In this document: positions 2,576 to 36,330 of the stretch, piece by piece | How positions within the stretch are numbered: position 1 is the stretch's first letter | Layout of the letters: the number at the start of each line of letters is the position of its first letter | Assembly: GCA_937996665.1 (NCBI GenBank) | Contig: CALKUU010000263.1 | Coordinates: forward strand, 1,337-65,336 | Direction of reading: 5' to 3' | Length of the DNA stretch: 64,000 nucleotides | Origin: an uncultured Xenococcaceae cyanobacterium | GTDB lineage: Bacteria > Cyanobacteriota > Cyanobacteriia > Cyanobacteriales > Xenococcaceae | Notes under the pieces: model-generated | The model's database searches: none | What the model saw: the letters and a program-made list of their open reading frames with translations, nothing else | What the model was told of the DNA's origin: nothing | Position numbers and translations under genes: made by a program

Positions 2576-3220
2576 TTACGCTAATAGTTCAATATCAGTA
2601 AAATTATATTCCACGACTGAAGTATTCCCTTCTGCATCTAAGCTTTTAATCGTTCTTTTTACCAAAAGGTAGTAGTTGCCAACTTTTTCAAAATCATCAA
2701 CAAAATTAGTTTTGGATGTGTTTGGTTCTCTAGTTTCAGGATCAAGGTAAAAAGACTCGTATTCTGCTGATAAATAGCCACTTTCAGTCATGAATGTTTT
2801 CAAAGTGTTGATATTAACTATTTTGTCTCTGATGCGACGATTGACAAAACAAACAGTATTATCTCGCACTTTATAACTATTCCCTTCCGAAGCACCCCCG
2901 ATTAAAATCTCTTTGGCGCCTGTTTCATCTTCAGCTCCAAAAGAAAAAGTATTTTTGCCATGAGATTCTTCAAAGCTATGCTTTACTCGGTGAATAGTCA
3001 TTTCCCAAAGCTGACCTTGGATTGACTTTTTGGCTTTAGGATCTTCAACTCCAGAAACCTCAAAGGATAAATCAGCTTTTACAAGTGCCTGAGCTGTAAA
3101 CTGCTCTTCGCCACTTTTCATGGTTACGTTAGCGCGATAACCAGGAAAATCTTGATCCCAAGTGTAGCGATTTTCGTAAGCAGCACGAAAAAAATCTTGG
3201 GCAGTTATAGTTTGAGTCAT
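2576..3220 (-). CDS. DUF3386 family protein
   Basis: N-terminal FFRAAYENRYTWDQDFPGY is the conserved cyanobacterial signature. Confidence 0.85.
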   Translation of the reverse strand: MTQTITAQDFFRAAYENRYTWDQDFPGYRANVTMKSGEEQFTAQALVKADLSFEVSGVEDPKAKKSIQGQLWEMTIHRVKHSFEESHGKNTFSFGAEDETGAKEILIGGASEGNSYKVRDNTVCFVNRRIRDKIVNINTLKTFMTESGYLSAEYESFYLDPETREPNTSKTNFVDDFEKVGNYYLLVKRTIKSLDAEGNTSVVEYNFTDIELLA

Positions 3221-19932: not shown

Positions 19933-22296
19933 ATGTTTGAATACTTTAACGAAAAAGCTATAAAAACAGTAGTCCTTTCCCAAGAAGAGGCGAGAAGAGC
20001 TGGATATAATCTAGTTGGCAGTGAACATCTATTGCTGGGCATTATTGGCGAGGGTTCATCTGCTGCCGCGAAACTTTTAGAAGCTAACGGTATTAACACT
20101 AAGCAGACTAGGCAAGTTATTGAACAATTGGTAGGTAGGGGTGGTGGTTTTAGTCCGACAAATATTCCCTTTACACCTAGGGTTAAGAAGATTTTTGAAT
20201 TGGCTTTCGAAGAGTCACGCCAATTAGGTGACAATTTTATTAGTCCTGAACATTTGCTGTTAGCAATTTTGAAGGAAGTTGATACTGTAGCGGCTAAGAC
20301 CTTACTTAATCAAGGAATTGAGCTTGAGGATTTGCGAGTAGAACTTATCAAAAAATTGGGCGAAAAAGAACCATCTCTAGCGGGTGAGAATAAACGTTTT
20401 AACCCATTTGGAATGGGTGAAGAGCGTTCTGCTAAGCCTCGTTTGGCAGAATTCAGTACGAACTTAACTGAGTTGGCAAAAGAAGGAAAGCTCGATCCTG
20501 TTGTCGGCAGAAAAGCAGAAATTCAGCGAGCTATTCAAATTTTGGGACGTAGAACCAAGAATAATCCAGTTTTAGTTGGCGAACCTGGGGTTGGTAAGAC
20601 AGCGATCGCTGAAGGTCTTGCCCAAAGAATTGTGGCAGGCGAAGTTCCTGACTTGATGGAAGATAAGGAAGTAATCAGTCTTAATATGGGTTCTTTGTTA
20701 GCCGGAACCAAGTTTCGGGGAGAATTTGAAGAACGCCTTAAATCGGTTATCGAAGAAGTAAAGAAAGCCGGAAATATCATTTTAGTTATCGATGAAATTC
20801 ATACGATGATGGGTGCTGGTGCTATGGGCGGAGCGATGGATGCGGCTAATATGCTCAAACCATCTTTAGCTCGTGGTGAACTTCAATGTCTTGGTAGCAC
20901 CACTCTTGATGAATATCGTAAGCATATTGAGAAAGATGCTGCTTTAGAGCGTCGATTCCAAAAGGTTTTGGTGGGTGAACCTTCGGTAGAAGATAGCATC
21001 ATTATTCTGCAAGGACTACAAAAAACCTATGAGGAATTTCATAAGGTTAAATTCACCGATAAAGCAATTGAGTCTACGGTTATTTTTTCGGAAAGATACA
21101 TTACGGATCGCTTTTTACCCGACAAAGCCATTGATTTGCTTGATGAGGCTGGATCGAGAGTTCATCTCAGACATTCAATGGTTAAAGATGTCGTAGAGCC
21201 TGAAAACACACCTATTGATCCTCAGGCTTTGACTCCTGTGGTTGATGAGACTGAGATTGCAGAGATAGTTTCTGCTTGGACTGGGATACCTGTTGCCAAG
21301 ACTGATGCAACTGAAGCTGAAGCACTAGTTAACTTAGAAGTTAATCTTCATGAGCGAGTGATTGGTCAAGATGAAGCGGTTAAGTCGGTTGCTCGTGCTT
21401 TGCGCCGTTCTCGTTCTGGCTTAGGCGATCGCGATCGCCCAATTGCTAGCATGATCTTTTCTGGCCCTACTGGAGTAGGTAAAACTGAATTGGCTAAGGC
21501 TTTAGCTAGTTTAATGTTTGGCAAAGAAGATGCCATGATTCGCATCGATATGTCCGAATATATGGAACCTCATACGGTTTCCAAACTAATTGGTTCTCCT
21601 CCAGGATTTGTTGGTTTCGATGAAGGTGGACAGTTAACTGAAGCAGTTAGACGTAAACCCTATTCAGTAATCTTGTTTGACGAGATCGAAAAGGCTCATC
21701 CTGATGTCTTTAACCTCTTTTTACAATTGTTGGATGATGGAAGGATTACTGATGCGAAAGGTCGGGTGGTCAATTTTAAAAATACTGTGATCATCATGAC
21801 TTCCAATATTGGCGCGAAAGCGATCGAGAAAGGAGGCACTGGTCTGGGATTTGGCTTAGCCGATGATTCTGGTGAAGCAGAATACCAAAAAATTAAAGGG
21901 CTAGTTAATGACGAATTAAAAAACTACTTTCGTCCCGAATTTCTCAACCGTTTAGATGAAGTGATTGTCTTCCGCCAGCTTAGTAAGCTTGAGGTTGCGG
22001 CAATTTCTGAGATCTTGTTAGCTGAGATTTCTGCTCAGTTAAAAGAACAAAGAAACATTACCCTTGAGGTTACTAAAGCTTTTACCGACAAGGTTGTTGA
22101 TGAAGGTTTCGACCCTAGTTATGGAGCAAGACCGTTACGTCGAGCGATTATGAGATTACTTGAAGATAGTTTGGCTGAAGCTATTCTCTCAGGGAGAATT
22201 GTTGACGGCGATCATGCTTTAGTTGATGTTGGTGGTGAAGGTAAAACTATGATTTCTGCTGCTAGACAATCTGCATTAGTTGAATCAACTACTTGA
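19933..22296 (+). CDS. clpC: ATP-dependent Clp protease ATPase, ClpC-like paralog with short middle region
   Basis: [11 protein letters not shown] double Clp-N domain; Walker A motifs GEPGVGKT and GPTGVGKT; LGF loop (GGTGLGFG). Confidence 0.8.
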
Positions 22297-29593: not shown

Positions 29594-31300
29594 TTAAAGT
29601 TTCAGAATGCATTTTGCATCCATAACAGTGAGTTCATCACTAATAAAAGTCGTGCAAAGATCTTTATTTTTCAGAAGTGCAGAAGTTTGATTATTTTTTA
29701 AATCATAGACAACCCGGTTGTACTCTTCTCGATACTGCTTTATCCAGCGATTTTTAGTAACAAAGTCTAGATTGAAACTACGATCTTCAATTATCCAGTG
29801 AGTAATATGATGTTGCTGAATAAATGTTTTTACTAGATTGAGGTCAGGACTATATTGAGCAGTAATTAAAGCTTTAACTTTATCGGCAAAAGGTTTGTAA
29901 TAACCCAATTGATAGGGAACTGCATATTCGCTACTTACTAGCACAGAACGTTTGCTAAAAGAGGGCAAATAATTAGTTTCTTTAGTGAGAGAAGCAATTA
30001 CAGTATCCTTTGGTTGCTGTTTTAGATACTCGTATAGCTTGGGATGACGACCAATTTCGTAACCTGTAATTTTATAAGCTCTGGTAAGACTATAGTCAAA
30101 AAAACTACTATGAGAAAATAGGATGACCGCAATTACGGTGACAGAAATAAATAGTTTGCTTTTTTGCGGTGAGTGCTTTTTTTGCCAATATCGCCAGCAA
30201 GAATCTAAGATAATTGCGATTGCAATTCCACCGCAAAGATTCACCATAATTCTTAAACTATGACTCGTATAGCGAGATGGTAAATGTAGCTTAAATAATA
30301 CTAACTGAGCTAACAAGTACATTGCTAAAGAAGCTATTACTAGCTTGCTAACACAATTGAATTGAGGCGTAATTTTTCTGACTAAAGGGAATTGATTTGG
30401 CTTTTTTCTCAATAAAGGCAAAAGCAAACCGACGTATAGAATCGATGGTCTAAATGCTGTTTTCGAAATCATGATTCCTCTGCCGCTCCCAAAAAGATAT
30501 CCCCAAATAGTATCTTTGAAAAAATCCGCTCTTCCTTGAGAGTGAAATTCAGGCATGGCAAAAGCTTCAGCCCGAGTGATTATCGGGGCGTAATCAGAAG
30601 TTTTAACTGCGTAAGGTAATAAGACGAGAAAACCGATGATTAAACCAATAATGGCAAAATTACGTTCTTTAATATTCGGTGTAATACTGGGTGCAAACTT
30701 ATGCCAACGAATTAATTTTAGTAGCAACATTACCCAAGCAATCATTACCATTTGAGGGTAAAACAAGCTCAAAATAATTAGGCTAATCAAGCAAGGGATT
30801 AATTTCTGGTGGTTGAAGTATAAAAGAAATGCTAGAAAAAAAGGGTTCAAAAAAGCTCTGGGAGTTGCCGAAACTATATCATCCTTGAGCCATAGACTAT
30901 GGTTAATTAATAAAGTAGTCGTCAAACAACCCAGTGGGACAGGAAAAATAGTACGACACCATAAAAAAAAGTAGTAAGCGGTGATAATTCTTAAGGGAAT
31001 AGGAATTAACTTACCAAAAACAAAAGGATCGATGCCAAGCGCAAGACCAAGTCTATATAAAGATGTATAACCCCAAGGTGCAACTGACTGAAAATAATCG
31101 GCAATAAAATCGTTAGGAAACAATCCTGGTTCAGCATAGCGATTTAACCAAAAAACGTGTTGTCTCGCATCATCTTGTACGATCCAGTCTGTTGAAAAAG
31201 CTGTTTGTAAATCTAGCAACCCATAAAGTAAAGCTGACAGTAAGCTTGCTAGAAGAAAAACTTGCCATTGCCAAGATAGGTTGCTGATTTTTTTGCGCAC
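29594..31300 (-). CDS. Polytopic membrane protein, possibly GT-C-like
   Basis: About 10-12 TM segments; N-terminal luminal loop VQDDARQHVFW; soluble C-terminal domain. Confidence 0.55.
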   Translation of the reverse strand: MRKKISNLSWQWQVFLLASLLSALLYGLLDLQTAFSTDWIVQDDARQHVFWLNRYAEPGLFPNDFIADYFQSVAPWGYTSLYRLGLALGIDPFVFGKLIPIPLRIITAYYFFLWCRTIFPVPLGCLTTTLLINHSLWLKDDIVSATPRAFLNPFFLAFLLYFNHQKLIPCLISLIILSLFYPQMVMIAWVMLLLKLIRWHKFAPSITPNIKERNFAIIGLIIGFLVLLPYAVKTSDYAPIITRAEAFAMPEFHSQGRADFFKDTIWGYLFGSGRGIMISKTAFRPSILYVGLLLPLLRKKPNQFPLVRKITPQFNCVSKLVIASLAMYLLAQLVLFKLHLPSRYTSHSLRIMVNLCGGIAIAIILDSCWRYWQKKHSPQKSKLFISVTVIAVILFSHSSFFDYSLTRAYKITGYEIGRHPKLYEYLKQQPKDTVIASLTKETNYLPSFSKRSVLVSSEYAVPYQLGYYKPFADKVKALITAQYSPDLNLVKTFIQQHHITHWIIEDRSFNLDFVTKNRWIKQYREEYNRVVYDLKNNQTSALLKNKDLCTTFISDELTVMDAKCILKL

Positions 31301-31469
31301 ATCAGTAAGTATTAGAGAACAGGTAATAGTTAGTAAAACACATCTGACTCGAAGTTTTTTAACGATTGCGATTATTGGCTAATTACTAAAATTCTGTTCC
31401 CATAGCGGTTTCTCGCCTATCGAGAATTTCTTTGTCTAAGGTTAAAAACTCCCAAAGATAAGCTCGTCA

Positions 31470-31560
31470 AGGCAATTCCTGAATTAGCATCAAGTCTAAA
31501 GGTTCAAGCTATTTACTGGAATCTGGATGTCGAACCCTATTCTCAAGAGCGCGATCGCCA
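31470..31560 (+). pseudogene. Duplicated internal fragment of the photolyase gene
   Basis: 85/91 nt identical to 34088-34178; encodes AIPELASSLKVQAIYWNLDVEPYSQERDR; homology ends just after HIP1 at 31551-31558. Confidence 0.9.
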
Positions 31561-31593
31561 CAACATCTAGTAGATCTAACAGCAACAGTAAAT

Positions 31594-33693
31594 TCATTTC
31601 TCCAAGACTTTTAAGATAAAAGCATAATCAAAAGCCCTTTCTCGTAGTTTGGTATAACGAGCAGAAGAACCAGCATGTCCAGCAGTCATCTTCATTTTTA
31701 ACAGAAGCAAATTATCGTCTTTTTTAAGCTCACGCAGTTTGGCTACCATCTTGGTTGGTTCCCAATAGGTAACTTGCTCATCGGTTATCCCCGAATTAAA
31801 AAGCATGTTGGGGTAATCTTTGCTCTCCACATTATCGTAAGGAGAGTAGCTCAACATATATTTAAAGACCTCCTTACTTTGCAGCGGGTTTCCCCATTCA
31901 TTCCATTCTGGTGGAGTTAAGGGTAATGTTTCATCACAAATGGTACTGATAACATCGACAAAAGGAACATCCAGAATAACCGTTTGAAAGAGTTCGGGAG
32001 CTATATTGGTAATCGCACCCATGAGTAGTCCTCCTGCACTCCCACCATTAGCGACAATTTTCCCTTTGGAACTATATTGATGCTTAATTAAATATTCACA
32101 GCAAGAAATGAAATCCTTGAAAGTGTTGATTTTTTTGTCCATCTTGCCATCTAGATACCATTGATAGCCTCGATCTGATCCTCCGCGAATGTGAGCAGTA
32201 GAACAGGAAAACCCTCGATCTACCAAGCTGATGATATTGGCTGAGAAATAGGCTGGCATCGAGTAACCATAAGATCCGTAGCCATAGACAAATCCTGGGG
32301 CTTTACCATCTTGGACAAATCCTTTTTTACTAATAATCGTCAGCGGAATTTCCTCCCCGTCATGAGCTGGGGCAAAGACTCTTTTAACTTGGTAGTTATC
32401 GGGATTGAAGTTAGGACATTCCCCTGGTTTAACCACCGATATTGCCCCTGTTTCCAGATTGTACTCTTGGGTTTCACTGGGTCTAATGGGTGATTGATAG
32501 CTAAACTGAATCGTTTTACTATCAAACTCCAATGCTCCTATATAGCCAAGGGAGTATGCTTCATCCTTCATCTCGATTTCACTGGTTTTCCCAGTATCAA
32601 GATTGCGGATCACAATTTTGGGAAGTGCTAGTTTATTGTCGTTAATGTTCATGACCAGATAGTCATGATAGAGATCGATGTCTTCAATGTAGAAGCGTTG
32701 ATCGTGGGCAATCAATTCCGACCAATTCTCTTTCTCCCTCTGCTCTGGGGAACAGGTCATAATCTTATTGTTCGGACATTGATCGGCGTTGCTAAGAATA
32801 TAAAATCGACCTTGCCCCGAATCTAAGGAAATGAGGGTATCTTGTTCAAGCTCGTGGAAGAGGGTCGGCTGGGCTTTGGCATCTTGGGCATCCAGAAGAT
32901 AAATTTGGTTGGCGTTAGTATCACCAAATTCCAAAACGAGATAATTTTTATCGCTGGTCAAGTAAATCGACATAAAAAGATTGCTCAACTGAGCTGGTCG
33001 CTCAAAGACCAATTCTCTTTTCTCTGGTCCTTCGTGCAAGGGAAAACGATAGAGTGCTTGTCCTCTCCCATCTTGAGGATCTCGTTTAATATAGTAGAGA
33101 TGGTTATAGTCCTGACACCAAACTACGCTCCCTGTTGTCTCTGTTGCTTCCCAAGGAAAATCTTGACCACTTTCGAGATCACGTACTTTGACCGTATATT
33201 CCATCGAACCAGTGGTATTTTCTGAATAAGCGAGATAGCGATCGCCTTCGCTTCTACTCAGAGTTCCCAGACTATAGTATCCCCTGCCCTGAGCCTCGGC
33301 GTTAACATCAAAGTAGATTTCTTCTGTGGCTTCTAAGCTTTCTTTTTTACGACAATAGTAAGAGTAGTCTTTTCCCTTTTCAATCCGACCGTAATAGAAA
33401 TATTGTCCATGTTTCAGTGGGGCACTACTATCATCTTCTTTGAGACGAGAGAGCATTTCCTGATAAAGATCTTCTTGGAGTTGTGAAGTGTCCTCCATGA
33501 TCGACTCGGTATATTCATTTTCAGCGTTTATATAGTCACGGACTTGCTGATTTTTAAAATCAAGATCCCCTTTGATAAATTTTTGCCAGTTTTGATCACG
33601 CAACCAGTGGTAGTTATCAATGCGCTCAATGCCGTGATTACTTGCTATGAAAGGAATCTTTTGGGCACTAGGGGGTTGAATTTTTTCTGTCAT
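31594..33693 (-). CDS. ptrB: Oligopeptidase B (S9A serine peptidase)
   Basis: DNYHWLRD, YVYGYGSYG, AHIRGG, GGSAGG nucleophile, DEQV, AGHAG. Confidence 0.9.
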   Translation of the reverse strand: MTEKIQPPSAQKIPFIASNHGIERIDNYHWLRDQNWQKFIKGDLDFKNQQVRDYINAENEYTESIMEDTSQLQEDLYQEMLSRLKEDDSSAPLKHGQYFYYGRIEKGKDYSYYCRKKESLEATEEIYFDVNAEAQGRGYYSLGTLSRSEGDRYLAYSENTTGSMEYTVKVRDLESGQDFPWEATETTGSVVWCQDYNHLYYIKRDPQDGRGQALYRFPLHEGPEKRELVFERPAQLSNLFMSIYLTSDKNYLVLEFGDTNANQIYLLDAQDAKAQPTLFHELEQDTLISLDSGQGRFYILSNADQCPNNKIMTCSPEQREKENWSELIAHDQRFYIEDIDLYHDYLVMNINDNKLALPKIVIRNLDTGKTSEIEMKDEAYSLGYIGALEFDSKTIQFSYQSPIRPSETQEYNLETGAISVVKPGECPNFNPDNYQVKRVFAPAHDGEEIPLTIISKKGFVQDGKAPGFVYGYGSYGYSMPAYFSANIISLVDRGFSCSTAHIRGGSDRGYQWYLDGKMDKKINTFKDFISCCEYLIKHQYSSKGKIVANGGSAGGLLMGAITNIAPELFQTVILDVPFVDVISTICDETLPLTPPEWNEWGNPLQSKEVFKYMLSYSPYDNVESKDYPNMLFNSGITDEQVTYWEPTKMVAKLRELKKDDNLLLLKMKMTAGHAGSSARYTKLRERAFDYAFILKVLEK

Positions 33694-33843
33694 ATCAACT
33701 ATTTGGTTGGTTATTGCTTGGCTATTGCAGAGGAAAGTAAGCTTAATTATCCTAAGATAAATTATTCAAGGTCAACAACATCTATAGACTTATGGATTTT
33801 TGTTAGTCTTTTCACTACAAGTATTTAAGGTATATGACCTGGT

Positions 33844-35262
33844 ATGTCTGATTCGATTTTATTTTGGCATCGTTGCGATTTGCGTATTACAGACAATATT
33901 GGTCTAAGTGCAGCCAGGCAAATAAGTCCTCAAATCATAGGTGTATTTTGCTTAGATAAAAATATTTTGAGTCGCGATGACATAGCTCCAGCAAGGATCA
34001 AATATATGCTGGGTTGTTTGGCTCAGTTGCAGCAGAGTTATCAGAGTTTGGGTAGTAGACTTTTGATTATCGAAGGTAAGCCAGCCCAGGCAATTCCTGA
34101 ATTGGCAGCAAGTCTAAAAGTTCAGGCTGTTTACTGGAATCTGGATGTCGAACCCTATTCACAAGAGCGCGATCGCCAAGTAAAGACCGCTTTAGAGAAT
34201 AACAACATAGAAGTCAAAACCTTTTGGGATAAGCTGCTTCACTATCCAGGCGAAATTTTAACCCAATCAGATTTACCCTACAAAGTCTATACTCCCTTTT
34301 GGCGAAACTGGATTAAGCAAACCAAAGTGAGCATCGCCAGCCCTATTAATGCTCTAGAAGATTTCACGAATAATCAGCAAGTAGCCGCAGAAATTAAGCT
34401 ACCTACTCTTGCGGAACTCGGTTTTGAATGGTCACAAGATTTATTGTTAGCTCCAGGAGAAGATTCGGCGCGATCGCAACTAGAAAAATTCTCTCAACAG
34501 CAAATCTATGAATACGATCAACAGCGAAATTATCCTTGGCAAGCTGGCACATCTTTGTTGAGTGCTGCTCTTAAATTTGGCGCGATTGGTATTCGCACAG
34601 TCTGGCTCGCCACCACTGAAGCTTTAACAAACTGTCAGAGCGAAGAAGCACAAGCAAATATTATTACGTGGCAAAAAGAACTAGCTTGGCGCGAATTTTA
34701 TCATCATTGTTTATATTTTTTTCCTGAACTTGCCCAAGGTCCTTATCGTCAGGATTTTCAGGATTTTCCTTGGGAAAATAACTCAGAACATTTTCAAGCT
34801 TGGTGTCAGGGTCAAACAGGTTATCCCATAATCGATGCAGCAATGCGACAACTTAATCAAACTGGTTGGATGCACAATCGCTGTCGGATGATCGTAGCTA
34901 GCTTTCTCACCAAAGACTTGATTATTGATTGGCGTTGGGGTGAAAAATACTTTATGCAAAAGTTATTTGACGGTGACTTAGCTGCTAATAATGGCGGTTG
35001 GCAATGGAGCGCTTCTAGTGGCATGGATCCCAAACCTCTGCGGATTTTTAACCCTGCTTCTCAAGCTCAAAAGTTTGATTCTGAAGCCGAATATATTCGT
35101 CAATGGCTACCCGAACTTAGCTCGATCGCCACAGGACAGCTAGTATCAGGAAAAATACCCGATCTAGAGCGCTATCGCTGCAATTACCCTCAACCAATTG
35201 TCGATCACAGCGTTCAACAACGCCGCTTCAAAGAACTATATAAGCAGCAAAAAGGTAGGTGA
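33844..35262 (+). CDS. phr: Deoxyribodipyrimidine photolyase (class I)
   Basis: [52 protein letters not shown]. Confidence 0.93.
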   Translation: MSDSILFWHRCDLRITDNIGLSAARQISPQIIGVFCLDKNILSRDDIAPARIKYMLGCLAQLQQSYQSLGSRLLIIEGKPAQAIPELAASLKVQAVYWNLDVEPYSQERDRQVKTALENNNIEVKTFWDKLLHYPGEILTQSDLPYKVYTPFWRNWIKQTKVSIASPINALEDFTNNQQVAAEIKLPTLAELGFEWSQDLLLAPGEDSARSQLEKFSQQQIYEYDQQRNYPWQAGTSLLSAALKFGAIGIRTVWLATTEALTNCQSEEAQANIITWQKELAWREFYHHCLYFFPELAQGPYRQDFQDFPWENNSEHFQAWCQGQTGYPIIDAAMRQLNQTGWMHNRCRMIVASFLTKDLIIDWRWGEKYFMQKLFDGDLAANNGGWQWSASSGMDPKPLRIFNPASQAQKFDSEAEYIRQWLPELSSIATGQLVSGKIPDLERYRCNYPQPIVDHSVQQRRFKELYKQQKGR

Positions 35263-35628: not shown

Positions 35629-36330
35629 CTAAACAACTAACCCAAAATAAATACTCAAAGGCACAACAATAAAACCAAGAGTTATCAAGATTGCAATAAC
35701 TAAAGAAATTGTATAGAACAGGCTACTAGCCTTACCCTCCAAAACTCCCAACGATTGGGCTGCACTCCAAACACCATGACGCAAGTGAACCCCCAAAAAC
35801 AAAATAAAACCCACATAACTTAGGGTATAAAAAGGATTATGGAAAGTTTCGATTACCAAACTTGCTAAATCCCTAATTGCTTCTCCATTTGCGATAATGC
35901 TTTGGGTATCACCAAACTTGAATGTGATCAGATGCCAACCTAAAAAAGCTAAAGTCAGTAAACCCGTAAGCGCCATTGAACGAGAACTAAGAGATTGCTT
36001 ACTAGGAGAACCCGCACTCTTCATTTGTTGATAAGGGAGCGATCGCGATCGCCAAGCTTGCAGACGAATAGAAATACCAACTACAAGATGTAAAACAATT
36101 GCCAAACCAAGAATTAACTCAACGCCATTAAAGATAAAACCCCAACGATCAAGATTATGCGCCAATTGATTGTATGCCTGGGGCTTCTTAAGAAGTAGTA
36201 AGTTTCCCAAAGCATGGAAAACTACAAATAGGATTAACCCAAAACCAGTTAAACCAGTAATAAATTTTTTCCCTAGTGAAGATTGGAAAAATTTTAACCA
36301 AGACGTTTGACTGTCATTAGAAAGGTTCAT
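35629..36330 (-). CDS. sdhC: Succinate dehydrogenase cytochrome b subunit (b558 family)
   Basis: SSLGKKFITGLTG, FHALGNL, HLRHGVWSAAQSLG; five TM helices. Confidence 0.85.
   Translation of the reverse strand: MNLSNDSQTSWLKFFQSSLGKKFITGLTGFGLILFVVFHALGNLLLLKKPQAYNQLAHNLDRWGFIFNGVELILGLAIVLHLVVGISIRLQAWRSRSLPYQQMKSAGSPSKQSLSSRSMALTGLLTLAFLGWHLITFKFGDTQSIIANGEAIRDLASLVIETFHNPFYTLSYVGFILFLGVHLRHGVWSAAQSLGVLEGKASSLFYTISLVIAILITLGFIVVPLSIYFGLVV

What the first reader, a model, noticed from the sequence alone, without database searches (positions are those of the whole stretch)
31470..34178. Photolyase fragment duplicated 2618 bp upstream and cut off at HIP1: footprint of ptrB integration
31470-31560 matches phr 34088-34178 at 85/91 nt, and homology stops 2 nt after GCGATCGC; weaker similarity extends about 17 nt further 5'. 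Four of the six differences are synonymous and two are conservative (A/S, V/I), so the copy diverged while still coding, as a second allele would. The layout [phr fragment|HIP1]-ptrB-[intact phr] is what Campbell-type integration of a ptrB + 5'-phr circle, or a HIP1-anchored recombination, would leave (inference). The function of HIP1 is still debated, so a breakpoint exactly at HIP1 is useful evidence.
Basis: partly seen in the sequence, partly recalled or inferred. Interest (0 to 1): 0.7.

Follow-up and report, generated by a model that had tools for sequence, protein, structure and literature searches.

The report
Photolyase gene scrap joined at HIP1
A decaying 106-base leftover of the photolyase gene lies on the far side of a neighbouring protease gene and ends at the cyanobacterial palindrome HIP1; it is one of several such scars in this genome, which shows that DNA is joined at HIP1 when genes are inserted or duplicated.

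Summary
Window 31455-31560 copies phr 34073-34178 (95/106; core 85/91). It is a direct repeat with only two copies in the genome, and the match ends 2 nt past GCGATCGC. Two independent public assemblies and contigs from runs of three studies carry the same relic-ptrB-phr layout in strains up to about 7% diverged, so it is neither an assembly artefact nor recent.

The "second allele" argument fails. Strain comparison shows that three of the six core differences arose later in the intact phr and two more in the relic. The 5 synonymous / 6 non-synonymous split fits one decaying copy beside one constrained copy.

The HIP1 part holds. A same-genus relative has a HIP1 31 nt after its ptrB stop; here it is 35 nt. 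Genome-wide, 9 of 143 ends of low-copy repeats sit at HIP1, against 1.5% expected. Three other loci show the same layout: gene-end relic, HIP1, cargo, intact gene. Two of them have allele-like, mostly synonymous divergence.

This ptrB type sits in a different context in every other assembly examined. The relic covers only phr nt 230-335, so a later trimming step is needed.

Best reading: a HIP1-to-HIP1 illegitimate joint made during import or duplication of ptrB plus the phr 5' part. It is a natural instance of a known kind of event.

The parts
29594..31300 (-). 568-aa membrane protein gene (no Pfam domain). It is the left neighbour of the relic.
   Evidence: Orthologs in genus relatives are 55-61% identical and lie in other contexts. 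The next-best protein in the large database is 66% identical.
31301..31454 (.). Intergenic stretch 'X' upstream of the membrane-protein gene. Its right end (31454/31455) is the left junction of the relic and carries no HIP1.
   Evidence: It is conserved in strains X2 and X4 (1 substitution in 57 nt in X4; a 3-nt insertion in X2).
31455..31560 (+). Relic of phr nt 230-335 (codons 77-112), in sense orientation, with no start codon. The frame closes just past the joint (ERDRHNI**).
   Evidence: All strain copies share six derived letters, which indicates a single origin. Conserved residues G and P of the 'GKP' motif are lost.
31551..31558 (.). HIP1 octamer GCGATCGC at the right junction. It is read as a hybrid of the phr-internal HIP1 and a HIP1 that lay behind ptrB.
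   Evidence: G001 has a HIP1 31 nt after its ptrB stop, against 35 nt here. The site is mutated in some strains: X2 variant 31557 G>A and X4 31552 C>T.
31561..31593 (.). 33-nt spacer between the junction and the ptrB stop codon. It is hypervariable between strains.
   Evidence: 11 of 33 positions differ, plus a 9-nt insertion, in L070/X3, while the relic beside it differs at 3/78 positions from the window's relic.
31594..33693 (-). ptrB, an oligopeptidase B / S9 peptidase of 699 aa. This is the 'cargo' gene.
   Evidence: Pfam PF02897 + PF00326. Homologs of 75% identity or more are found only in a handful of marine cyanobacterial assemblies; every context that could be read (nine) differs, and none has phr adjacent. 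Homology to L065 (91% nt) stops at 31593 and 33694, the ends of the ORF.
33694..33843 (.). Intergenic region between the divergent ptrB and phr genes. It contains no HIP1.
   Evidence: It is shared by L069 and L070, and 33694-33775 is shared by the X8 organism.
33844..35262 (+). Intact phr, a deoxyribodipyrimidine photolyase of 472 aa.
   Evidence: Pfam PF00875 + PF03441 over the full length. Its downstream synteny phr-sdhC-like-orf164-orf410 is kept in both same-genus genomes.
34073..34178 (+). Source copy of the repeat inside phr. It ends 2 nt past the phr-internal HIP1 at 34169-34176, within codons R-D-R (CGC GAT CGC).

Best explanation
The 106-nt stretch is a non-functional, decaying relic of the resident phr 5' region. 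It was displaced when a DNA segment with the structure [HIP1-spacer-ptrB-intergenic-phr 5' part] was joined in.

Shown:
- The relic comes from this lineage's phr.
- It arose once, before the sampled strains split.
- It decays like non-coding DNA.
- Its right end is a joint at HIP1.
- Joints at HIP1 are over-represented at repeat ends in this genome.

Inferred mechanism:
- One end of the incoming segment recombined homologously within the phr 5' part.
- The other end was joined illegitimately through the 8-bp identity between a HIP1 behind ptrB and the HIP1 inside phr (codons R-D-R).
- This could have happened as an excised circle integrating Campbell-style, or as homology-facilitated illegitimate recombination of DNA from a close relative.
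- The product would be U-phr(1-334)|HIP1-spacer-ptrB-intergenic-phr(full).
- A later deletion removed phr nt 1-229 and its promoter from the upstream copy. That promoter would have driven antisense transcription into ptrB. The deletion left X-phr(230-335).

The donor must already have had ptrB next to phr. The relic therefore marks the arrival or duplication of that block in this chromosome, not the first union of the two genes.
For: - The repeat is real, has two copies, and ends at HIP1.
- It is present with the same junctions in independent assemblies and in runs of three studies.
- All relic copies share six derived letters. F-derived changes hit the conserved G and P residues. The syn/nonsyn split is 5/6, against 62% non-synonymous expected for one decaying plus one constrained copy.
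- G001, of the same genus, has a HIP1 31 nt after the stop of its 83%-identical ptrB, against 35 nt here.
- HIP1 occurs 3757 times in the genome, once per 1104 bp. Of 143 ends of low-copy repeats of at least 85% identity, 9 lie within 4 nt of HIP1 in both copies, against 1.46% expected (p = 2.8e-4). Shifted HIP1 maps give 0-3, against 11 observed on one side. Ends of high-copy repeats score 4/974.
- The same layout occurs at C154 (ccdA 5' relic|HIP1, 5.6-kb nitrile-hydratase-like operon, ccdA), at C177 (HNH gene 5' relic|HIP1, 317-aa gene, HNH gene) and at C81 (host gene tail, mazEF-like pair, HIP1|relic tail).
- At C154 and C81 the two copies differ almost only synonymously (12:3 and 11:1; p = 0.0016 and 8e-5). 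This indicates a relative's allele came in with the cargo.
- ptrB is in a different context in every other assembly whose flanks could be read, and phr's downstream side is the conserved one.
- The divergence between strains across the locus is patchy, which shows ongoing inter-strain recombination.
- comEC and dprA are present.
- Literature: HIP1-flanked excision at smtB and HIP1-promoted excision (Gupta 1993 and Robinson 1997, as cited in PMC13756078, PMC5861425 and PMC4390886); HIP1 raises transformation and recombination efficiency (bioRxiv 10.1101/2024.09.10.611283).
Against: - The relic lacks phr nt 1-229, so one more event has to be assumed. Its left junction has no HIP1 and no traceable parent sequence.
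- No strain with the empty site, or with a full-length 5' relic, was recovered. The only hint is one 196-nt contig at 2x depth in run X10.
- For phr itself the divergence pattern does not distinguish an imported allele from an in-place duplicate.
- The HIP1 behind ptrB is shared only with G001. Three other homologs (G012, G036, L065) have their nearest downstream HIP1 163-289 nt away. A chance HIP1 at that offset has a probability of about 2-3%.
- The genome is a 349-contig metagenome-assembled genome. Identical repeats would have been collapsed, so the repeat census is biased.
- Some of the 9 HIP1-ended repeat ends are not independent; about 7 are.
Confidence: 0.5

Rival explanations
1. This would be purely intragenomic. 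An unequal exchange between sister or polyploid chromosome copies, at the HIP1 behind ptrB and the HIP1 inside phr, made a 2618-bp tandem duplication of [spacer-ptrB-intergenic-phr 1-334]. A later deletion removed the left ptrB copy and phr nt 1-229.
For: The repeat spacing equals the HIP1-to-HIP1 distance of 2618 bp. There is a HIP1 behind ptrB in G001. The syn/nonsyn pattern fits in-place divergence. HIP1-mediated excision, which is the reciprocal product, is documented (cited in PMC13756078). No foreign DNA is needed.
Against: It needs a large, precisely placed second deletion that removes a whole ptrB copy. The three parallel loci of the same genome each have single-copy cargo, and two show allele-like synonymous divergence that an in-place duplicate would not give. 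ptrB-phr adjacency is unique to this lineage.
Confidence: 0.25
2. The relic would be templated filler at a rearrangement joint. While a break or stalled fork behind ptrB was being repaired, the nascent end paired at HIP1 with the nearby phr HIP1 and copied about 100 nt of phr. It then switched again to the membrane-protein gene's upstream region, joining two previously separate regions in one complex event.
For: This explains in one event why only an internal piece (nt 230-335) is present. It also explains why one end is at HIP1 and the other is not. HIP1 is a palindrome that could stall forks or pair out of register (inference).
Against: There is no direct evidence. Templated insertions of this size are poorly documented in bacteria (own knowledge). 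The other HIP1-ended relics in this genome retain gene ends and upstream DNA, which fits displacement better than filler.
Confidence: 0.1
3. The fragment would be maintained for a function. For example, read through from ptrB on the minus strand, it would give a 3' UTR antisense to phr mRNA codons 77-112. Alternatively it could serve as promoter or leader DNA of the membrane-protein gene.
For: No terminator-like hairpin lies between the ptrB stop and the relic on the minus strand. The relic has persisted in all strains sampled.
Against: Its divergence between strains (up to 4/106) is not lower than that of neighbouring DNA. The fold is no better than shuffled sequence (z = 0.47). There is no Rfam match and no RNA run to test transcription. 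The relic has also lost letters that matched phr (31465 and 31469 in the window strain).
Confidence: 0.03
4. The fragment would be an artefact or a chance match: a chimeric metagenome assembly, a dispersed repeat or a mobile element.
For: The genome is a fragmented metagenome-assembled genome. The two copies share an exact 31-mer, at which Logan unitigs break.
Against: There are only two copies in the genome, with E = 1e-34. Independent assemblies and runs from three studies carry both junctions, including strains 4-7% diverged.
Confidence: 0.02

Closest known systems
HIP1-flanked illegitimate recombination in Synechococcus: the 352-bp smtB excision of Gupta et al. 1993 and the excision assays of Robinson et al. 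1997 (as described in PMC13756078, PMC4390886 and PMC5861425)
   Same: A rearrangement joint lies exactly at GCGATCGC, and HIP1 is present in both parent sequences. The 8-bp repeat acts as the site of a RecA-independent type of exchange.
   Different: Those cases are deletions selected or assayed in the laboratory. This one is a natural joint, fixed in a population, that duplicates or inserts DNA and leaves a gene relic next to a cargo gene. This genome also gives statistical support (9/143 repeat ends).
Homology-facilitated illegitimate recombination (HFIR) during natural transformation of Acinetobacter and Streptococcus pneumoniae (de Vries & Wackernagel 2002; Prudhomme et al. 2002; own knowledge, not read here)
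   Same: One side is anchored by homology to a resident gene. The other side is joined at a short G+C-rich microhomology, which traps foreign cargo next to the anchor gene.
   Different: HFIR products usually delete recipient DNA. Here the resident gene end is kept as a displaced duplicate. The microhomology is always the same hyper-abundant octamer, and transformation of this organism has not been shown.
Campbell-type single-crossover integration of a circular molecule
   Same: Direct repeats of the homologous segment flank the inserted DNA. One copy is truncated and the other is attached to the intact gene.
   Different: The upstream copy lacks the first 229 nt of the gene. The circle itself would have to be made by HIP1-to-HIP1 excision. 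No circle or naive strain has been observed.
HIP1 as a Chi-like or uptake-enhancing sequence in Synechococcus PCC 7002 (bioRxiv 10.1101/2024.09.10.611283; Akiyama et al. 1998, cited in PMC4390886)
   Same: It links HIP1 to the integration of incoming DNA.
   Different: Those data concern the efficiency of homologous integration and plasmid recombination. They do not concern illegitimate joints that leave gene relics.

Membership tests
HIP1-mediated illegitimate recombination joint | An exact GCGATCGC lies at the point where homology ends | tested here: met
   Homology ends 2 nt past HIP1 (31551-31558 / 34169-34176).
HIP1-mediated illegitimate recombination joint | HIP1 was present in both parent sequences before the joint formed | tested here: inconclusive
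   The phr parent has it: 34169-34176 in all strains, and in G002's phr. The ptrB-side parent is not available. G001 has a HIP1 31 nt after the ptrB stop, against 35 nt here, while G012, G036 and L065 have their nearest one 163-289 nt away.
HIP1-mediated illegitimate recombination joint | The coincidence of joints with HIP1 exceeds chance | tested here: met
   9/143 repeat ends against 1.46% expected, p = 2.8e-4. Shifted maps give 0-3 against 11 observed. Ends of high-copy repeats score 4/974.
Campbell-type integration of a ptrB + 5'-phr circle | Direct repeats of the homologous segment flank the insert | tested here: met
   The two repeat copies flank ptrB (31594-33693) at a spacing of 2618 bp, and only the downstream copy belongs to the intact phr.
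Campbell-type integration of a ptrB + 5'-phr circle | The upstream copy retains the gene's 5' end up to the crossover region | tested here: not met
   There is no similarity to phr nt 1-229 left of 31455. A later deletion must be assumed.
Campbell-type integration of a ptrB + 5'-phr circle | A naive relative exists with the empty site (phr without ptrB, in the same left context) | tested here: inconclusive
   G001 and G002 have phr without ptrB upstream, but with other left neighbours, and they are only 70-75% identical. No close strain lacks the insert.
Homology-facilitated illegitimate recombination (import from a relative) | The two copies differ as two functional alleles do (excess of synonymous changes) | tested here: not met
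   For phr the split is 5 syn / 6 nonsyn, p = 0.40 against the decay model. Three differences arose later in phr and two in the relic. The feature is met at the parallel loci C154 (12:3) and C81 (11:1).
Homology-facilitated illegitimate recombination (import from a relative) | The organism can take up DNA | tested here: inconclusive
   comEC and dprA homologs are present, but they are widespread and do not prove competence.
Dispersed repeat / small mobile element | Many copies in the genome | tested here: not met
   There are two copies only. The next-best hit is 24 nt with E = 0.0017.
Tandem duplication by unequal exchange | A second copy of the duplicated unit (ptrB) exists, or a trace of one | tested here: not met
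   There is a single ptrB of this type in the genome and no ptrB-like sequence left of the relic.

The most novel reading that the evidence does not exclude
HIP1 would be the standard 'illegitimate end' of a general gene-import route in cyanobacteria. In this route a cargo gene travels with a piece of a neighbouring conserved gene. That piece recombines homologously, and the far end is stitched to the recipient at a HIP1 inside the same gene. The result is the recurring scar [gene-end relic|HIP1]-cargo-[intact gene]. If so, the abundance of HIP1 would set where accessory genes can land, which would give the 30-year-old motif a role in gene flow.
Probability: 0.3. Interest if true: 0.75.

Novelty: new member of a known kind. 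Interest (0 to 1): 0.5.

Why it matters
What HIP1 does has been debated since the 1990s. Laboratory work showed that it can mediate excision and that it boosts transformation, but natural rearrangement joints at HIP1 are scarcely documented.

This locus is a fixed, multi-strain example of such a joint. The same genome supplies a simple quantitative test: repeat ends against HIP1 positions, with shifted controls. It also supplies three sister loci, two of which show that a relative's allele came in with the cargo.

Together these turn 'HIP1 is a recombination site' into something that can be counted across genomes. It can also be rebuilt in a transformable model strain.

Tried and rejected
- Synteny in 40 relatives. 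The nearest genomes are only 70-75% identical in phr and are rearranged on the upstream side, so the ancestral left context could not be recovered.
- Search for an empty-site or relic-less strain. No joint skipping ptrB was seen in eight runs. The membrane-protein gene has no close homolog in the protein collection.
- A paralogous source for the DNA behind G001's HIP1. None was found.
- Relic-type repeats around ptrB in the other eleven loci. None was found.
- Functional readings. There is no terminator, no Rfam family, no fold signal and no RNA run.
- Compositional sign of foreign origin of ptrB. There is none: its GC is 0.40-0.45, like phr, and one HIP1 inside ptrB is conserved in several lineages.
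- An integron-cassette idea for ptrB, prompted by homology ending at the ORF ends. It was dropped because phr of other species also loses homology exactly at its start codon. The pattern therefore reflects fast-diverging non-coding flanks plus different contexts.
Full report
**Observation**

The window carries a direct repeat of 106 nt, at 31455-31560 and 34073-34178. The copies are 95/106 identical and 2618 bp apart.

The downstream copy is codons 77-112 of an intact 472-aa photolyase gene, phr (33844-35262; PF00875 + PF03441). The upstream copy lies between a 568-aa membrane-protein gene (29594-31300, minus strand) and the 3' end of a 699-aa S9 oligopeptidase B gene, ptrB (31594-33693, minus strand).

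Identity ends 2 nt after GCGATCGC in both copies. The relic frame closes immediately afterwards (ERDRHNI**), and the stop-to-stop frame of the relic is only 54 codons. In the organism's own genome (4.15 Mb, 349 contigs) these are the only two copies, with E = 1e-34; the next-best hit is 24 nt. The fragment is therefore not a dispersed repeat.

**The relic is real and older than the strains**

Two independent ENA assemblies carry relic-spacer-ptrB-intergenic-phr. L069 is 99.3% identical over 31458-35111, and L070 is 95.7% identical over 31483-34876. Logan contigs of runs from three studies span the junctions:
- X1 and X2: identical and near-identical strains.
- X3: about 95% identical.
- X4: about 93-95% identical.
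- X6 and X11: also carry the junctions.

All relic copies share six letters that differ from every phr copy: 34076A, 34082T, 34085T, 34104A, 34129A and 34161T. The relic therefore arose once, before these strains split.

**The 'second allele' argument**

The strain table polarises the 11 differences seen in the window.
- 34108 (A/S), 34119 and 34125 are changes in the intact phr of the window lineage. X4's phr still carries the relic's letter at all three sites, and L070's phr does so at 34108.
- 31465 and 31469 are changes in the window's own relic. L069 and X4 carry the phr letter there.
- Of the six older differences, at least three are relic-derived by comparison with G001 and G002. They destroy the conserved G and P residues of the 'GKP' motif and change V to I.

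Overall there are 5 synonymous and 6 non-synonymous differences. One neutral copy beside one constrained copy would give 62% non-synonymous (p = 0.40). The synonymous bias in the core simply reflects continued evolution of the working gene. It is not evidence that the fragment was once a second coding allele.

**HIP1 at the joint**

HIP1 occurs 3757 times in this genome, once per 1104 bp. Comparable palindromes occur 1-46 times. A random point lies within 4 nt of a HIP1 with probability 1.46%.

Two further results make a coincidence unlikely.

First, in the same-genus genome G001 the 83%-identical ptrB is followed by a HIP1 31 nt after its stop codon. In the window the junction HIP1 lies 35 nt after the stop. 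G012, G036 and L065 have their nearest downstream HIP1 163-289 nt away. The junction octamer can therefore be read as a hybrid of a HIP1 that already lay behind ptrB and the HIP1 inside phr (codons R-D-R, CGC GAT CGC).

Second, I ran a self-comparison of the whole genome. Among 143 ends of low-copy repeats of at least 85% identity, away from contig ends, 9 end within 4 nt of a HIP1 in both copies (binomial p = 2.8e-4; about 7 are independent). Shifting the HIP1 map by 25-200 nt gives 0-3 hits, against 11 observed on one side. High-copy repeats, which are likely insertion sequences, show 4 of 974. In the alignments, homology stops at the outer edge of the octamer in 6 of the 9 cases and 2-4 nt beyond it in the other three, this locus included.

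**Sister loci in the same genome**

Three other loci have the same layout of gene-end relic, HIP1, cargo and intact gene.
- **Contig C154.** A 357-nt copy (95% identical) of the ccdA 5' end stops at a HIP1. It is separated from the intact ccdA by a 5.6-kb block. By sequence motifs the block looks like a cobalt nitrile-hydratase operon with a CobW-type GTPase and a HupE-like transporter. I made these gene calls by eye and did not run them through Pfam.
- **Contig C177.** The first 13 codons of an HNH-type gene stop at a HIP1. They are separated from the intact gene by one 317-aa gene.
- **Contig C81.** A 117-nt copy of a host gene's 3' tail begins at a HIP1, on the far side of a mazEF-like pair.

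At C154 and C81 the two copies differ almost only at synonymous sites: 12:3 and 11:1, with p = 0.0016 and 8e-5 against the decay model. Those relics were working alleles until recently, and the intact copy came from a diverged relative together with the cargo. A fourth place, C214, shows a chimeric A-HIP1-B element whose two halves recur separately nearby.

**ptrB as cargo**

Homologs of at least 75% identity exist in about ten marine cyanobacterial assemblies. The next relatives, at 50-64%, are from Bdellovibrionota and Endozoicomonas-like bacteria.

Every other context I could read is different. The neighbours seen were:
- DUF4351
- hsdR and hydantoinase
- acetyltransferases and a zinc-ribbon gene
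- PEMT and GH3
- PBP2 and GGDEF-EAL
- NMT1
- LysE
- a VOC-like gene in G001

phr is adjacent only in the window's lineage. By contrast, phr-sdhC-like-orf164-orf410 is conserved in both genus relatives, and the synteny break lies just upstream of phr in all three genomes. ptrB shows no compositional anomaly and carries a conserved internal HIP1, so it has long resided in HIP1-rich genomes. Divergence between strains across the locus is patchy, which indicates ongoing homologous exchange.

**Mechanism**

The joint phr-335|ptrB-3'-flank sits upstream of an intact intergenic-phr. This requires that ptrB-intergenic-phr 5' were already contiguous on some molecule. The relic therefore records the arrival or duplication of that block here, not the first union of the two genes.

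The reading I favour (0.5) is as follows. A segment [HIP1-spacer-ptrB-intergenic-phr 5'] entered by one homologous exchange within phr and one 8-bp HIP1-to-HIP1 joint. The segment most likely came from a close relative, given the sister loci. It could have entered as a circle excised at two HIP1 sites or as a linear fragment. The entry displaced the resident phr 5' part upstream. A later deletion then removed nt 1-229 and the promoter, which would otherwise fire antisense into ptrB.

One low-depth contig in run X10 (196 nt, 2x) shows a longer, frameshifted phr piece (34018-34174). It also stops inside this HIP1 and runs on into other DNA. It lacks the relic-specific letters and is weak evidence, but it hints at longer or independent relics at the same site.

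The rival readings are:
- a purely internal unequal exchange followed by deletion of a whole ptrB copy (0.25);
- a templated filler at a rearrangement joint (0.1);
- a functional antisense or leader role (0.03; no terminator, fold z = 0.47, no Rfam match, no RNA data);
- an artefact (0.02).

**Comparison with what is known**

HIP1-flanked excision (Gupta 1993) and HIP1-promoted excision in E. coli and Synechococcus (Robinson 1997) are described in PMC13756078, PMC5861425 and PMC4390886. A HIP1-dependent rise in transformation, with a proposed Chi-like role, is reported in bioRxiv 10.1101/2024.09.10.611283. Homology-facilitated illegitimate recombination (own knowledge) is the closest mechanistic model.

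The present case is a natural, fixed instance of this known kind. What it adds is the relic architecture, the genome-wide count, and the allele-like sister loci.

Earlier notes of this scan describe the same scar in other cyanobacteria. I used them as leads only.

**Verdict**

Novelty: new member of a known kind. Interest: 0.5.

Noticed in passing
own genome G000, contig C154:2423-8814 (outside the window): A 357-nt copy (95% identical) of the ccdA 5' end stops exactly at a HIP1. It lies 5.6 kb from the intact ccdA. Between them is what looks, by motif, like a cobalt nitrile-hydratase operon with a CobW-type GTPase and a HupE-like gene. The copies differ 12 synonymous : 3 non-synonymous, which is allele-like.
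   Followed up: partly
own genome G000, contig C81:605-1518 and C33:1-442: A 117-nt copy of a host gene's 3' tail begins at a HIP1 on the far side of a mazEF-like toxin-antitoxin pair. The copies differ 11 synonymous : 1 non-synonymous. A third copy on C33 ends at the same HIP1.
   Followed up: partly
own genome G000, contig C177:13181-14514: The first 13 codons plus upstream DNA of an HNH-type gene are duplicated 1.27 kb away and cut at a HIP1. One 317-aa gene on the opposite strand lies between the copies.
   Followed up: partly
own genome G000, contig C214:295-3072: An element A-HIP1-B (1271-1423) is chimeric. Its half A-HIP1 recurs at 2985-3072 and its half HIP1-B at 295-371. Genes that look defence-related lie between, so this may be a cassette-like array with HIP1 at the joints.
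   Followed up: no
window 31561-31593: The 33-nt spacer between the junction HIP1 and the ptrB stop is hypervariable between strains: 11 of 33 letters differ, plus a 9-nt insertion. The relic beside it differs at 3/78 positions from the window's relic. In the window strain most of the changes are to A.
   Followed up: partly
window 31593-33694 versus locus L065: A 91%-identical ptrB from another metagenome shares no flanking DNA at all. Homology stops within 1 nt of the stop and start codons. This ptrB type sits in nine different contexts in other assemblies.
   Followed up: yes
run X10, laid on window 34018-34174: One 196-nt contig at 2x depth holds a longer phr piece with a 1-nt deletion. 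It also ends inside the phr HIP1 and runs on into unrelated DNA. This may be a second or older relic at the same site.
   Followed up: partly
window 21425-21438 and 36039-36052: Two overlapping HIP1 octamers form GCGATCGCGATCGC at each of these two places.
   Followed up: no
locus L065, last 16 nt: This public metagenome contig ends in what I recognise as a Nextera-type adapter sequence, so adapter was left in the assembly.
   Followed up: no
window 29594-31300: The 568-aa membrane protein has no Pfam domain. It belongs to a family with about five paralogs in this genome and several in each relative. One source names a relative a glycosyltransferase.
   Followed up: no
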